This document shows, piece by piece, positions 59,417 to 63,600 of a stretch of DNA of 64,000 bases. The position numbers and the translations under genes are program-made. The stretch's first letter is position 1. Each line of letters starts with the position of its first letter. Location: NCBI GenBank assembly GCA_963514005.1, contig OY740797.1:20088001-20152000 (forward strand), read 5' to 3'. Source of the stretch: Raja brachyura (Eukaryota). The notes below the pieces were generated by a model. It saw only the letters and a list, made by a program, of their open reading frames with translations. It ran no database searches and had not been told where the DNA came from.

Positions 59417-59920
59417 ATGTTTCTCTTCCAGCTCCTGTCTCTCTCGATGATTTTTTATGCAGGTATCCTTATATTTTGTTGGCTATATTTAAGAGGGAGT
59501 TAGATGTGGCCCTTGTGGCTAAAGGGATCAGAAGGTATGGAGAGAAGGCAGATACGGGATACTGAGTTGGATGATCCGCCATGATCATATTGAATGGTGG
59601 TGCATGCTCGAAGGGCCGAATGGCCTACTCCTGCACCTAATTTCTATGTTGCTATGTTTCTATTTTCTTTGAAACAATTTTCAATGCCAGAATACTCAGA
59701 ACAATTACTGGTTCAACCGCGCGAAATTAATTTTTCCATATGCCGTTGTTTAATGAATCATACCCAAATTTATCTCGAGCGTCCATTCCACGCTGAATAT
59801 TACCAATCAAATTGTGTACGGTTTTGCAGCAGGTGCCGAAATAACTGCGATCCACATGACTCAAATTCCGGAGAGAGTGGTTATATTGATGGGCTCACAG
59901 ATATTCTCGCATTGCATGAC
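59417..59920 (+). pseudogene. Relic third paralog: leader exon (59417-59462) plus truncated V exon (from 59830)
   Basis: Leader MFLFQLLSLSMIFYA G|gtat with a 5' flank homologous to gene B. V start AIHMTQIPERVVILMGSQIFSHC then decays. A CR1 tail sits in the intron (~59480-59660). Confidence 0.8.
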
Positions 59921-60650
59921 GATCTACGCAATTGAAATCGAAAACTATGCAAATAAAACCACTTTTTGTTCGCTAACTGGATTCCCGCTAAATTCGATTC
60001 TTCCCGATAGCTGTGGAAAACTGAAGTAGACTCTACACGGTGTTAAATTTGACACCTAGATGAGCAATGGACAATATCTGTGCCAAACCGCAACAAAATA
60101 TGATCCCAGCACCGATTCTCCCTCTGCTTTAATGGCCCTGATGCATTCGGCTATGACGTTATTTTACCTTTTAGTTCTACTATTCGGACTCGTCATTTCC
60201 ATCTGTTGTTGTACTTCGATATACTTGCGATTGTGGCAAAATATTGTATAATCCCATGCCAGATCAATTACAATGGCGTCCAGCAACACAGGGGTGCCTT
60301 AACTAAAGTATTGCACGTTTTGTAATTATGGGCGCAAATTGTCCCATACTCTGTCGGTAATCTCGCCCTGATTTCTGGCAGTTAGGAATTCCCCAACTCT
60401 AATAATTCGCTAGTCTTCTCGCTTCGCGCTTCTCTTTCGCCCTGCAGAAAACACCTCCCAAACATTATTTTGCTAGTTGCCTGCTGCACTCTTATTTATG
60501 TTCCTTCACCAGCGAATGCGGAGTGTAGTCCCACCCACCTAAGGAAACGCGCCAAACGTCATCGCAACACATTTCCAAGTAATCATTGCTTAGAGTGAAT
60601 ATCGTAGTGAGGCATCAGTTGAATGATTGGCTCGGAATGTTAAAACTGCA

Positions 60651-60696
60651 ATGTTTCTGGTCCTGATTCTGTCTCTCTCCATGATTATTTGCACAG
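60651..60696 (+). CDS. Gene B exon 1, signal peptide
   Basis: ATG...ACA G|gtac encodes MFLVLILSLSMIICT. Confidence 0.88.
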
Positions 60697-63600
60697 GTAC
60701 CTGAACGATCTCAGATAGACTTATCTAAATGTCAAAATATCCAAAACTATTCCAGGCTTAACTGGTGAAATCTATTTGTTCTATTTGTCTGTTAGTTTTG
60801 TTTTTCATACCAATGTATTATCAAAAGAGTTGGTTCTACATTGAATATAATTAACCAAATCTTAAACGTTTTTCCAACAGCTGCTGAAAAAAAATCGATC
60901 CACGTTATCCAAATTCCAGAACGAGCGGTTATATTGAAGGGAGCAAACGTCACCTTTCACTGCATAATCCCACTTACGGATGACAGTTCGGGGATCGAAG
61001 TGCGTTGGCGAAAACAGGGGGAGAATGGATATATACAAAACGACGCTGATAGCAGAAAGCGAATCACCATCAAAAATAGAGCAGGCGGATATTTTCATTT
61101 GCTGAACACGACCTACCAGGATTCGGGAAACTATGGCTGTGTAGTCTTGCGTCAGGGAGAAATTAGGGGAGAAGGAACAGGGTCAGAACTAACAGTATGT
61201 GGTGAGTGACAAAAGTGAACAAAAAACCTGAGAATATTGCACAATAATTATATTTCTATATTAGAGTTCAGATTACTGAGAGAGAAGGGCCCAATGAAAT
61301 TATGTGAAAACTGCTAACCATATAATTTGATGCTCGTTTTATTGAATTTACAACGTTCAATATTATTATGCCGAAAGTATTTGTTAAAAATACAGCAAAT
61401 AAGATGTATTTCAAAACAGGTAACAATAGGTTTCAATCAAGAGATCATCACACCTTCAAATACGATCCAGCATAAATCACTATAAATTGCACCTCCAAAA
61501 GATTCAACAATTCGTGTCATTGAACGCTGGTTGAGTTGAAACAAAATTAACTTTCCTCGGCGGTTCTTGCGCTCCGCTGTATGAGATAACAGATATCGAT
61601 AATTCGTTAACTTCTGTCTTGAAGGGATCGGGTAAAATATGTGGATTTCTAAACAAGATTCTCCTATTGTCTTTGTTTAATTTCATCCCAGTAATGTTAT
61701 ATTTTCGCACTCTGTCCCATAGCCCTTCCAACTCCACTGAAGCTTAACTGGATATCCGAGAGGAATTCATCTGCAGCTTCAACGCTTGTCTGTGAAACGG
61801 CCGAGTTTCACCCGGGTGATCTAACCCTTCTATGGTATAAAAATAGCGTTGCTGTTACAGCTAAGGCTGATACCATTAAACAGAAAAACAGTGAAGGGCT
61901 GTACACGGCTTCCACTTCAATAGCCATGACGCAGTCGGAGGCGAACGGGAATATTTACATTTGTCTGGTGACACACATCTCCCTCCAAAGACCCGCCATT
62001 GCCATGCACGCCCTTCGCAAACCTGACCAAGGTATGAATAGAAACACCGTATAATTTTATAACTTATTATTGACATCTGAGTGTGTTGATATTGACAACG
62101 TTTTTTTTAAAAGGATCACAAATGCCATTCATATCATCGTAAACACTGACTACTCTAACGGGTCCCAGAAAGACTCGCTATTCCAGGTAACTGTCGAAAT
62201 GTGATGGGATGGCATTGATTTCCGCTCGAAATATTTTGCATTGTTTGCTCGTTAGTACGCATTCTCCGGAAGTCTCATACTAAATCCATTGTTTAGTGTA
62301 TGTTATCGAATTTTCTGACAGGAACTGATGTCTAGGAACTGCCCTAAATTGGTGCATCCCTTTCATTTTGGAAACTCTTTGAAAAAAAGTTCTCGAATTC
62401 AGCTAATTGTCAGAAAGTTTCCCTCACACGCCAGGGAACAATGGGCTCGGAAGTTACTTCTTTCTCTCAGTTTGAAGAAGGGTCATCCATTTCTTCTATC
62501 CAGAGATGTTGCCTGTCCCTCGGAGTTACTCCAGCATTTTGGGTCTATCTTCGGTTTAAACAGCATCTGCAGTTATTTGCTACGCAGCTACTGCCTTTAT
62601 TCCCTTTATCCCTTCACGTCTGTGAAACGGCCGAGTTTCACCCGAGCGAGTTAACTCTTGTATGGCATAAACATGGCACTGCAGTTATAACTAAGGCTAA
62701 TAGCGTTAAACAGAAAAATACTGAAGGGCTGTACGCAGTTTCTACTTCATTGCCCATGACAGTCGGAGCCGAATGGAAACGTTTACATTTGTCTGGTGTC
62801 TCATATCTCCCTCCAAAGAGTCGCAAATTCAACGTCGTTTTCAAAGGCATGACTTAAAAACACTTCGACGTTTTGTAACCTACGATTCAATTCTGAGTTT
62901 GTGGATGATAAATCATGAAAATTTGGTAGCAAATAAAACTATCCTGGTAAATAGTATCGACACAGTTCTCCAGAAAATTCCCGCAAAATGTGTTGTTTTC
63001 AAATTGTGGAAACGAATTAGAGGGGGCGGTTTAAATTTTTGTTCTGCACACAACCACTTGCAGCTCTGTATTAAATTCCTATTCCTATCATTGTGGATTC
63101 ATCCCGATTTGTGATCCTGTGTAGAAAAAATGACGTCCCTTCCAACCTGCTTGGATTTAAAGCAGGTTTACTGTTTCATATCCTGTTTCTGGTCAAGCGC
63201 CGTATGGTGGGTTTCAACAATGACATACTCTGGTATTGTGGGGTATTTTGATCGGCATGGACGAGCTGGGCCAAGGGCCGGTTTCTGCGCTGTTTCACTC
63301 AATATAATAACTGCATGTGGGGGGGCGACGGTGGGGAGCCATTTATTGCCAATCACTAATTTTTTTTGAGAGGACAGGGCGTCCTGGGACTTACTGCAGC
63401 GTATTTACCATATGATCTGCAGGCGTGTCGGGGGAAAGTACATTTGTCGGGGGAAAGAAGATTTGCCTTGGTCCTCAACCAAATCAGCACTTCACGAAGA
63501 CGTTGGAGCTTTGTGTGCTGTTGCATTCCAATTAAAAGTGAAGAAATATATCCCCCCCCCCCCTCCTCCCCCCCCTCCTCCCCCCCCTCCTCCCCCCCCC

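What the first reader, a model, noticed from the sequence alone, without database searches (positions are those of the whole stretch)
59890..62455. Abrupt identity step after C1 suggests gene conversion homogenising the ectodomain
Seen: genes A and B have identical leaders, 11/321 differences in V and 2/309 in C1, and highly similar introns 1-2 and ~0.75 kb of upstream DNA. Just after the C1 donor, similarity falls to roughly 70-80% by eye with many indels (62032-62455 versus 32885-32418). The 111-nt TM exons are only distantly homologous. Inference: an old duplication with recent conversion restricted to promoter through C1, as established for SIGLEC11/16 and SIGLEC5/14. This would keep ligand specificity and expression matched while signalling stays opposite.
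Basis: partly seen in the sequence, partly recalled or inferred. Interest (0 to 1): 0.7.

Follow-up and report, generated by a model that had tools for sequence, protein, structure and literature searches.

The report
Skate receptor rebuilt inside older gene
In what is likely a skate genome, a near-identical copy of the outer domains of a predicted inhibitory immune receptor sits inside the broken remains of an older related gene, likely splices onto that gene's predicted activating membrane anchor, and is likely kept matched to its partner by gene conversion, a known process seen here with an unusually complete fossil record.

Summary
The identity step is real. A versus B differences: leader 0/46, intron 1 0/184, V 11/321, intron 2 16/521, C1 2/309, then 71/340 plus 12 indels in intron 3 (changepoint 62074, LLR 128, best of 1000 shuffles 20). 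Introns alone show it (p=7e-23), so exon constraint cannot explain it and conversion-type exchange is well supported.

B's promoter-to-intron-3 cassette (59890-62455) sits inside an older, broken paralogue C. C's promoter, leader and first 61 nt of V lie before it, joined over a 4-nt microhomology. C's frameshifted C1 and intron 3 lie after it and lead to the Arg-bearing TM exon. TM synonymous divergence (0.57) fits C's age, not B's intron 3 (0.21-0.26). B is therefore likely a chimera: A-type ectodomain on C's TM.

A is a SIRP-like V-C1 receptor with four tyrosine motifs; the closest named relative is from a skate. 'Matched ligand specificity' is unproven: V is the least matched exon (9/106 residues). 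B's tail is outside the window and its expression is untested. Known process (Siglec, CEACAM, KIR), new lineage, nested layout.

The parts
34267..35034 (-). Gene A upstream region homologous to B's upstream
   Evidence: alignment; 35 mismatches in 760 ungapped columns
34221..34266 (-). Gene A leader exon (coding part)
   Evidence: GT donor; identical to B 0/46
33716..34036 (-). Gene A V exon, unsplit, with J-like GxG motif
   Evidence: Pfam V-set above cut-off; AG/GT ends
32886..33194 (-). Gene A C1 exon
   Evidence: Pfam C1-set E 2.5e-12
32420..32885 (-). Gene A intron 3, part homologous to B intron 3 (old stratum after the first ~45 nt)
32745..32797 (.). (AAT)17.7 microsatellite in A only, about 45 nt past the identity step; candidate barrier to conversion tracts (inferred)
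   Evidence: absent from B
31296..31406 (-). Gene A TM exon, no charged residue in the hydrophobic stretch
   Evidence: 20/36 aa identical to the Pristis ITIM-bearing homologue
30318..30349 (-). Gene A short cytoplasmic exon
   Evidence: keeps the frame in the spliced model; placed by eye from splice sites
29732..29830 (-). Gene A cytoplasmic exon with LTYSAV and TAYAK|V motifs
   Evidence: tblastn with ray homologues; donor
28715..28870 (-). Gene A last coding exon with LTYASV and TEYAAL motifs; spliced A is 357 aa with no internal stop
   Evidence: tblastn E 1e-12 with P0002
58722..59407 (+). Gene C upstream/promoter region, old paralogue of A/B upstream
   Evidence: 237/593 differences to A and to B over 58722-59416
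59408..59462 (+). Gene C leader exon, open frame, GT donor intact
   Evidence: 12/55 differences to A/B; donor; 12/15 aa match to the Mobula leader
59479..59666 (.). Young retroposon fragment inserted in C intron 1
   Evidence: 93.7-95.4% to two other copies in the window
59833..59893 (+). Gene C V exon, first 61 nt only, cut at the cassette edge; TGGG (59890-59893) shared with the A-type upstream edge
59890..62455 (+). B cassette: A-type upstream, leader, V, C1 and first ~420 nt of intron 3, nested in gene C
59890..62074 (+). Homogenised tract (67/2183 mismatches), with a 278-nt identical run 60630-60907 and a 223-nt run 61815-62037
60651..60696 (+). Gene B leader exon
60881..61201 (+). Gene B V exon
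   Evidence: Pfam V-set; 9 aa differences from A
61723..62031 (+). Gene B C1 exon
   Evidence: Pfam C1-set
62077..62455 (+). B intron 3 remainder, the unconverted old-duplication stratum
   Evidence: 71/340 mismatches, 12 indels
62465..62586 (+). SINE-like repeat at the 3' junction of the cassette; its flanks differ from the similar repeat in A intron 3
62618..62846 (+). Gene C C1 exon remnant: 5' end and acceptor missing, 2-nt frameshift, 13-nt loss near the 3' end, donor GC
   Evidence: 44-45/229 differences to B/A
62847..63185 (+). Gene C intron 3, 5' part, a third copy of this intron
   Evidence: 124-130/244 differences to A/B over 62893-63185
63850..63960 (+). TM exon with Arg in the hydrophobic stretch (IWSAVRPAVVIAF); likely C's own, the only TM exon available to B in the window
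   Evidence: B spliced model open for 262 aa to the window end

Best explanation
Gene B's promoter, leader, V, C1 and the start of intron 3 form a cassette of gene A type that lies inside an older broken paralogue C and likely splices onto C's arginine-bearing TM exon, giving a predicted activating twin of the predicted inhibitory receptor A, and its promoter-to-C1 part has likely been re-matched to A by repeated gene conversion between the head-to-head copies. Shown: the nesting, three divergence strata (C: non-coding p 0.36-0.53; B intron-3 remainder 0.21-0.26; tract 0.02-0.07), the step, open frames and GT/AG sites. Inferred: C was an Arg-TM receptor in the skate lineage; an A-type cassette landed in it and destroyed its V-C1; later conversion tracts overwrote promoter to C1+45 nt and stopped at the indel-rich intron 3, just before A's (AAT)n block; the 5' junction is young and joined over TGGG. 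Function by analogy only: A would recruit SHP-type phosphatases through its tyrosine motifs; B would pair through the TM Arg with an ITAM adaptor (FcR-gamma/CD3-zeta type, recalled) and act as a decoy or counter-receptor for A's ligand.
For: Nesting: C promoter, leader, intron 1 and V 5' end align to B/A up to 59893 and stop there; C C1 3' part and intron 3 follow the cassette; the two halves do not overlap. Both halves have the same age: exon remnants 12/55, 13-15/61 and 44-45/229; non-coding 237/593, 57/158, 124-130/244. TM synonymous divergence 14.8/26 rejects 0.21 (p=5e-5) and 0.26 (p=0.001) and fits 0.40 (p=0.07) and 0.51 (p=0.56). A intron 3 beyond 32420 has no match in the B region except a SINE. 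C1 tree: (Pristis,(C,(Leucoraja,(A,B)))) with 100/99, 97/93, 98/82; B+C clade AU p=0.045. Conversion: intron-only step p=7e-23; three-way run of 52 A=B sites among 221 polymorphic sites, best of 10000 shuffles 32; uneven ages inside the tract (second changepoint p=0.002; 278-nt run p=0.0012 in the whole tract, p=0.032 in the core). 4-nt junction match has chance about 0.003-0.004. Similar same-species pairs among database gene models: Heptranchias P0158/P0038 C1 93/101 but post-C1 region 6/45; Mobula birostris P0162/P0165 V 100/107, C1 91/98, post-C1 region 18/43.
Against: No transcript evidence that B splices to the TM exon; that acceptor has a weak pyrimidine tract and a stronger candidate acceptor lies in the SINE at 62503, which would give a stop. 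The closest relative, Leucoraja P0001, is modelled with no TM exon. B's tail is outside the window. The 5' edge of the cassette is young (6/100 mismatches, p=3e-5 against 0.21), which a single old insertion does not predict and needs a later deletion or a one-ended event. Homology of the intron just upstream of the TM exon to A is marginal (score 45.5, shuffle maximum 40.5). The TM tree is unresolved (A+B clade AU p=0.137). The C1 tree does not reject A+Leucoraja (p=0.29). In Mobula the C1 domains group by paralogue type (94/98 between species versus 91/98 within), only V leans to species (100/107 versus 96/107). No intact orthologue of C or B appeared among 2 of 133, 8 of 209 and 26 of 7999 candidates scored.
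Confidence: 0.65

Rival explanations
1. One young insertion, with the step created in A. The whole 59890-62455 cassette was copied recently from a fourth paralogue E outside the window (or lost). A is the chimera, having taken E-type promoter-to-C1 onto its own intron 3 and TM. B is still an A-like ectodomain on C's TM, but A-B conversion is minor.
For: Young 5' edge with microhomology (6/100 mismatches). C's remnants have no stop codon in 100 in-frame codons and only about 2-3 indels in 345 nt, which leans weakly to recent loss. A TM-less V-C1 model exists in Leucoraja.
Against: Needs an unseen gene: the family profile finds no other V or C1 exon in the window. Uneven identity inside the tract (0/184 in intron 1, 16/521 in intron 2, 25/380 distal) still needs exchange at more than one time.
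Confidence: 0.13
2. No insertion: three tandem genes (X, B, Y) were fused by two deletions, one removing X from mid-V to B's upstream and one removing B's own TM through Y's C1 start. B still ends up on an older paralogue's TM, and conversion with A still explains the step.
For: Explains a young 5' junction with TGGG microhomology as a late deletion. Tandem arrays are common in this family: 5 Hypanus, 5 Hemitrygon and 4 Mobula birostris models among the 26 hits, each set sharing one longest-contig length.
Against: The 5' and 3' remnants are complementary halves of one gene with the same divergence; two independent deletions giving this is less economical.
Confidence: 0.12
3. One reading: A and B are whole-gene duplicates; conversion covered promoter to C1, and B's own TM diverged.
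For: Step and tract are real; TM exons are the same length and homologous without gaps; fast amino-acid change in TM (pN 0.48) could inflate its distance.
Against: A third C1 exon and a third intron-3 copy lie between B's C1 and the TM exon; A/B homology ends at 62455; TM synonymous divergence is older than B's intron 3 (p<=0.001).
Confidence: 0.05
4. Assembly artefact: a false duplication, chimeric join or polishing of two repeats made the tract look homogeneous.
For: No reads could be examined; two perfect runs of 278 and 223 nt are what cross-polishing could give.
Against: No N in the window; copies are inverted, 26 kb apart, with distinct flanks; 67 differences are spread through the tract; amino-acid differences in V split 4 A-derived, 4 B-derived, 1 unresolved against Leucoraja and Pristis, as expected for two real genes.
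Confidence: 0.04
5. Purifying selection alone kept promoter to C1 similar after one old duplication.
For: C1 and the leader are the most similar coding parts.
Against: Introns 1 and 2 differ at 16/705 against 71/340 in intron 3 (p=7e-23); synonymous sites in V and C1 differ at 3 of about 152.
Confidence: 0.01

Closest known systems
SIGLEC11/SIGLEC16 conversion (PMC5701461; passages read)
   Same: Head-to-head inhibitory/activating pair; converted part covers upstream DNA and the V exon; a microsatellite marks one boundary ((GAAT)n at the 5' edge of the similar region there, (AAT)n near the 3' step here).
   Different: There the activating gene is described as a duplicate of SIGLEC11; here the ectodomain cassette is nested in a third, older paralogue whose remnants flank it. 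Different protein family (V-C1 versus V-C2 sialic-acid lectin).
CEACAM paired receptors: canine CEACAM1/CEACAM28 (PMC2832619, passages) and Xenopus ceacam pairs (PMC5112662, passages)
   Same: Opposite orientation; dog tract covers about 1 kb upstream, leader, intron 1 and the V-like exon; nonsynonymous changes build up in V after conversion, as here (9 of 11 NG86 differences nonsynonymous).
   Different: Most CEACAM tracts are limited to the N exon; here the tract includes C1, and V is the least matched exon. CEACAM activators carry cytoplasmic ITAMs, not a TM Arg.
Activating KIR and Ly49 formed by recombination (PMC2213150; passages read)
   Same: A new activating receptor arises by joining an inhibitory receptor's extracellular domains to an existing activating signalling domain; this is the closest precedent for B.
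   Different: There the products are inferred from domain trees as recombinants; here the displaced ectodomain survives as remnants on both sides and the 5' join is non-homologous with microhomology.
SIRP-alpha / SIRP-beta (PMC12975943; passages read)
   Same: SIRP-alpha and SIRP-gamma are the top two PDB sequence hits for the full-length ray homologue P0004 (E 1.8e-18, 1.2e-15); V plus C1-set ectodomain; ITIM-type tail in A; positively charged TM residue in B; database names of the ray homologues are 'SHP substrate 1-like'.
   Different: One C1 domain instead of two; Arg near the outer end of the TM instead of the central Lys of SIRP-beta (Lys position recalled); orthology, synteny and CD47 binding untested.
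Non-rearranging VJ genes of cartilaginous fish: UrIg/UrIg2, NKp30, PRARP (PMC12227049 parts 1-3 of 8 read; PMC10751288 passages)
   Same: Single-exon V with J-like motif and split leader; C1-set domain; UrIg2 is the second-best PDB hit of the family profile (E 7.8e-37); gene conversion among UrIg2 C domains is reported in sharks.
   Different: UrIg has three and UrIg2 nine or more C1 domains; NKp30 has no C1 (recalled). PRARP was seen only as a cited name and could not be compared.

Membership tests
Paired receptors homogenised by gene conversion | Ectodomain-coding region, including non-coding sites, far more similar than flanking homologous DNA | tested here: met
   introns 1+2 16/705 vs intron 3 rest 71/340, p=7e-23; changepoint LLR 128 vs shuffle maximum 20
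Paired receptors homogenised by gene conversion | Ectodomains cluster by species, not by paralogue | tested here: inconclusive
   A+B exclude the single Leucoraja protein (V 100/95, AU p=0.035; C1 98/82, AU p=0.29), but no second species with both A and B orthologues was found, so a young duplication gives the same tree
Paired receptors homogenised by gene conversion | Signalling exons cluster by paralogue | tested here: inconclusive
   A TM 20/36 to Pristis inhibitory homologue vs 9/36 to B; TM tree unresolved, AU p=0.137; no B-type TM orthologue found
Paired receptors homogenised by gene conversion | One member has ITIM/ITSM-type cytoplasmic motifs | tested here: met
   A tail LTYSAV, TAYAKV, LTYASV, TEYAAL, conserved in ray homologues; sequence motif only
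Paired receptors homogenised by gene conversion | Other member has a basic TM residue | tested here: met
   Arg in B/C TM exon
Paired receptors homogenised by gene conversion | Activating member lacks ITIMs in its tail | not testable with these tools
   window ends 40 nt after the TM exon
Paired receptors homogenised by gene conversion | Both genes expressed, share ligand, signal oppositely | not testable with these tools
   no transcript or binding data; V differs at 9/106 aa
Paired receptors homogenised by gene conversion | Opposite transcriptional orientation | tested here: met
   A minus, B plus, head-to-head, leaders 26 kb apart
SIRP family | V-set plus C1-set extracellular domains | tested here: met
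   Pfam V-set and C1-set; AlphaFold model of P0001, mean pLDDT 87.5, two Ig domains
SIRP family | One V plus two C1 domains as in SIRP-alpha/beta/gamma (PMC12975943) | tested here: not met
   A has a single C1 exon; named ray homologues also have one
SIRP family | SIRP is the nearest known relative by sequence | tested here: inconclusive
   top hit for P0004, third for the family profile behind IgA1 and UrIg2; fold searches gave Ig light chains and B7-type V-C proteins, Z 16.2, rmsd 3.3-3.5, 193-203 aligned
SIRP family | Conserved synteny and CD47 binding | not testable with these tools
   no neighbouring host genes were recognised in the window (output partly cut); no binding test
Non-rearranging VJ-C1 genes (PRARP/UrIg type) | Unsplit V exon with J-like GxG motif followed by a C1-set exon | tested here: met
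   GEGTGSELTV at the end of one 321-nt V exon; C1-set
Non-rearranging VJ-C1 genes (PRARP/UrIg type) | Orthology to PRARP or UrIg by tree or by MHC/antigen-receptor linkage | not tested
   no PRARP sequence at hand; UrIg paper not held; domain count differs from UrIg/UrIg2

The most novel reading that the evidence does not exclude
The locus is a fossil record of ectodomain renewal on a long-lived activating anchor: an Arg-TM module lost its own V-C1, captured the inhibitory receptor's promoter and ectodomain by a microhomology-joined insertion, and has since been re-matched by conversion. The same pairing recurs independently in rays and sharks, so an undescribed SIRP-like VJ-C1 family runs a paired-receptor arms race across cartilaginous fish.
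Probability: 0.35. Interest if true: 0.65.

Novelty: new variant of a known kind. Interest (0 to 1): 0.45.

Why it matters
Conversion between paired receptors and grafting of inhibitory ectodomains onto activating signalling domains are documented in mammals and Xenopus (PMC5701461, PMC2832619, PMC5112662, PMC2213150). This locus extends the pattern to a cartilaginous fish and keeps the intermediate: the displaced ectodomain, the junction and three datable strata. It gives a direct comparative test in skates of how an activating twin is born and maintained. It also points to a multigene SIRP-like V-C1 family in sharks and rays for which seven literature searches listed no description; most subscription papers, including the PRARP and UrIg papers, were not searchable, so that is not proof of absence. 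The core claim of the finding, conversion of an ectodomain, is a known phenomenon.

Tried and rejected
GENECONV itself was not available; a changepoint test, a longest-run test and a three-sequence polymorphic-site run test were used instead. A Fisher test printed used placeholder counts and was discarded; the value quoted is. My first exon model for A had the TM boundary off by one base and ended the tail at a read-through stop; corrected. Cluster members of P0001 and P0002 could not be listed, so whether Leucoraja has two near-identical copies stays open. No DNA of any related species could be obtained (the DNA collections offered are prokaryotic, phage or plasmid, or were closed, and were not used), so the cross-species intron test was not run. 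Fold searches did not name a family: Foldseek gave antibody chains with TM-score about 0.4, VIA gave B7-type two-domain proteins within about 1.5 Z of each other; SIRP was not among the rows shown, which excludes nothing. The V exon alone found only generic Ig hits in PDB. dN/dS in V (pN 0.037, pS 0.026) rests on too few changes to show positive selection. Orthology of the SINE at 62465-62586 with the SINE in A intron 3 was considered and rejected because the flanks differ. A possible fourth TM remnant at 17121-17195 is not significant (E 9.7 with the family profile, 0.21 with a TM profile). Homology of C's far upstream to A's was not found (scores within shuffle range). A fourth, still older stratum for the TM exon was considered because A's TM is closer to Pristis than to B, but synonymous divergence fits C's age. 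Rows left out of trees: only the 27 named database proteins were used; P0158 was dropped from the V tree (model lacks mid-V), P0038 and P0173 lack V, three TM-less models are absent from the TM tree; two tick/teleost hits and the TM-only P0174 were not used. Supplementary files of the cited papers were not opened.
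Full report
Observation. A self-comparison of the window finds one long inverted match, 32542-35034 against 62339-59890, 92% identical. Aligned by segment, A (minus) and B (plus) differ at 25/380 and 10/380 upstream sites, 0/46 in the leader, 0/184 in intron 1, 11/321 in V, 16/521 in intron 2, 2/309 in C1, 5/45 in the first part of intron 3, and 71/340 with 12 indels in 62077-62455. The best single changepoint is 62074 (support 62033-62075; LLR 128, maximum 20.3 in 1000 shuffles). 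Four aligner settings give 78-81% ungapped identity after the step and 96.9% in intron 2. The two 111-nt TM exons match at 56/111 nt without gaps.

The genes. A is leader, V, C1, TM and three cytoplasmic exons, 357 aa with no internal stop, with four tyrosine motifs (LTYSAV, TAYAKV, LTYASV, TEYAAL); the last exon at 28870-28715 was found with ray homologues. B is leader, V, C1 and a TM exon with an Arg, open for 262 aa up to the window end; its tail is outside the window. Pfam calls the domains V-set and C1-set. The closest named protein is from Leucoraja erinacea (V 89-90/106, C1 87/98), followed by ITIM-bearing ray proteins, so the window is likely from a skate. SIRP-alpha and SIRP-gamma are the top PDB sequence hits for a full-length ray homologue. 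The family profile ranks IgA1 and shark UrIg2 above SIRP-alpha, and fold searches with a model of the Leucoraja protein (pLDDT 87.5) return antibody chains and B7-type proteins. It resembles SIRP in layout; membership is not established, and it has one C1 rather than two.

Remnants of a third paralogue, C, surround B. Before the cassette lie C's promoter (58722-59407), an intact leader (59408-59462), intron 1 with a young retroposon, and the first 61 nt of a V exon that stops exactly where A-type upstream DNA begins. After the cassette and a SINE come the 3' part of a C1 exon (62618-62846; acceptor lost, 2-nt frameshift, 13-nt loss, GC donor) and a third copy of intron 3, leading towards the TM exon. 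The halves are complementary and equally old: exon remnants differ from A/B at 12/55, 13-15/61 and 44-45/229 sites, non-coding parts at 237/593, 57/158 and 124-130/244. On the same columns of intron 3, A and B differ at 64/244. A's intron 3 beyond 32420 has no counterpart near B except a SINE. At the 5' junction the four bases TGGG belong both to C's V reading frame (Met-Gly, as in ray homologues) and to the A-type upstream edge; chance is about 0.003-0.004.

Whose TM exon? Synonymous divergence between the TM exons is 14.8/26. That rejects the age of B's intron-3 remainder (p=5e-5 for 0.21, p=0.001 for 0.26) and fits C's non-coding age (p=0.07 for 0.40, p=0.56 for 0.51). C's exon remnants themselves give a lower synonymous value, 22.5/71, so the fit is to the non-coding sites. 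A's TM is closer to the sawfish inhibitory homologue (20/36 aa) than to B's (9/36). In the C1 tree of 30 rows, C branches after Pristis and before Leucoraja, A and B (100/99, 97/93, 98/82), and a B+C clade is marginally rejected (AU p=0.045). The simplest reading is that the Arg-TM exon is C's, and B is an A-type ectodomain on C's anchor. The intron just upstream of the TM exon aligns to A only marginally (45.5 against a shuffle maximum of 40.5), and the TM tree is unresolved.

Is it conversion? Selection alone is excluded: introns 1 and 2 differ at 16/705 against 71/340 (p=7e-23). The step falls inside in-register homologous sequence, which implies homology-directed replacement. With C as third sequence, A and B agree at 65/69 polymorphic sites before the step and 87/152 after, with a run of 52 (shuffle maximum 32 of 10000). 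The tract holds more than one age: a second changepoint at 60253 (p=0.002) and a 278-nt identical run over leader and intron 1 (p=0.0012 whole tract, 0.032 core). A and B group against Leucoraja in V (100/95; AU p=0.035), less firmly in C1 (AU p=0.29). An (AAT)17.7 block in A only (32745-32797) lies about 45 nt past the step and may stop tracts; that is inference. Direction is unknown: of nine V amino-acid differences four are A-derived, four B-derived and one unresolved. One result complicates the history: the cassette's 5' edge is young (6/100 mismatches, p=3e-5 against 0.21), so that junction formed late, by deletion or a one-ended event, or the cassette came whole from an unseen paralogue.

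Does it keep specificity matched? Not shown. V, the presumed ligand-binding domain, is the least matched exon: 9/106 residues against 1/102 in C1, between two near-perfect flanks. pN 0.037 and pS 0.026 show no purifying signal but are too few for positive selection. B's expression is untested; its TM acceptor is weaker than a candidate acceptor in the SINE that would give a stop, and the Leucoraja model has no TM.

The wider family. Protein searches returned named V-C1 relatives from skates, rays and sharks (2 of 133, 8 of 209 and 26 of 7999 candidates). Among these automatic gene models, Heptranchias P0158 (ITIM) and P0038 (TM Arg) share 93/101 C1 residues but 6/45 after C1, and Mobula birostris P0162 (ITIM) and P0165 (TM Arg) share 100/107 in V, 91/98 in C1 and 18/43 after C1. 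Between the two Mobula species V leans to grouping by species and C1 to grouping by type, so that test is mixed. A single clade of five Arg-TM ectodomains is rejected (AU p=0.0006). No intact orthologue of B or C was found.

Comparison with the literature. Passages read: SIGLEC11/16 are head-to-head, with conversion over upstream DNA and the V exon and a (GAAT)n boundary (PMC5701461); canine CEACAM1/28 share about 1 kb upstream through the N exon (PMC2832619); Xenopus ceacam pairs convert N exons and then gather nonsynonymous changes (PMC5112662); new activating KIR and Ly49 arise mainly by joining inhibitory extracellular domains to an existing activating signalling domain (PMC2213150); SIRP features (PMC12975943). 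Abstract only: CD300A/C conversion (PMC12447643). Parts 1-3 of 8: UrIg2, with conversion among its C domains (PMC12227049). Passages: PMC10751288 and PMC6795676. Searches listed no description of this family or locus, but PRARP and UrIg papers could not be read.

Verdict. Observation confirmed; conversion supported; the two-gene history is replaced by a nested three-gene history (confidence 0.65). The process is known; the lineage and the preserved nested layout are new. Novelty: new variant of a known kind. Interest 0.45.

Noticed in passing
window 10325-15037 (+): Full-length LTR retrotransposon: two 203-nt LTRs 100% identical, TG...CA ends, 5-nt target duplication ACTAT, one long ORF with RT, RNase H and integrase in Ty3/Gypsy order. 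A further LTR copy (98%) is cut by the window start at 1-121. Looks like a very recent insertion.
   Followed up: partly
window 37043-41643: Older, broken LTR element between genes A and B, LTRs 89% identical, 66% similar to the element at 10325-15037.
   Followed up: no
window 49297-55358 (-) and 150-992 (-): Interrupted L1-like LINE reading frames (family name by resemblance, recalled); two copies 72% identical over 624 columns.
   Followed up: no
window 59408-59462 and 59833-60026 (+): C's leader and promoter look intact and its donor has the same phase as B's V acceptor, so C's promoter could be an alternative start for B. Splicing to C's own V stub would read into the cassette and stop at about 60026.
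   Followed up: no
window 62031-62054 (+), 32886-32863 (-), 62846-62857 (+): Read-through of the C1 donor gives a stop within 3-7 codons in A, B and C; the Leucoraja model ends GMT-stop like C. A secreted V-C1 form is possible. A and B share a 1-nt gap against C here.
   Followed up: partly
P0162/P0165 (Mobula birostris), P0158/P0038 (Heptranchias perlo): Candidate inhibitory/Arg-TM pairs with near-identical ectodomains in other elasmobranchs; automatic gene models carry unrelated names (tapasin-related, B7-H6-like, MHC class II-like, TCR beta-like).
   Followed up: partly
window 63552-63614: 62-nt poly-C / CCCCCCCCTCCT tract in the intron before the TM exon; could be a sequencing-hard stretch.
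   Followed up: no
window 17121-17195 (+): Weak resemblance to the family's TM exon followed by a stop; not significant (E 0.21-9.7).
   Followed up: yes
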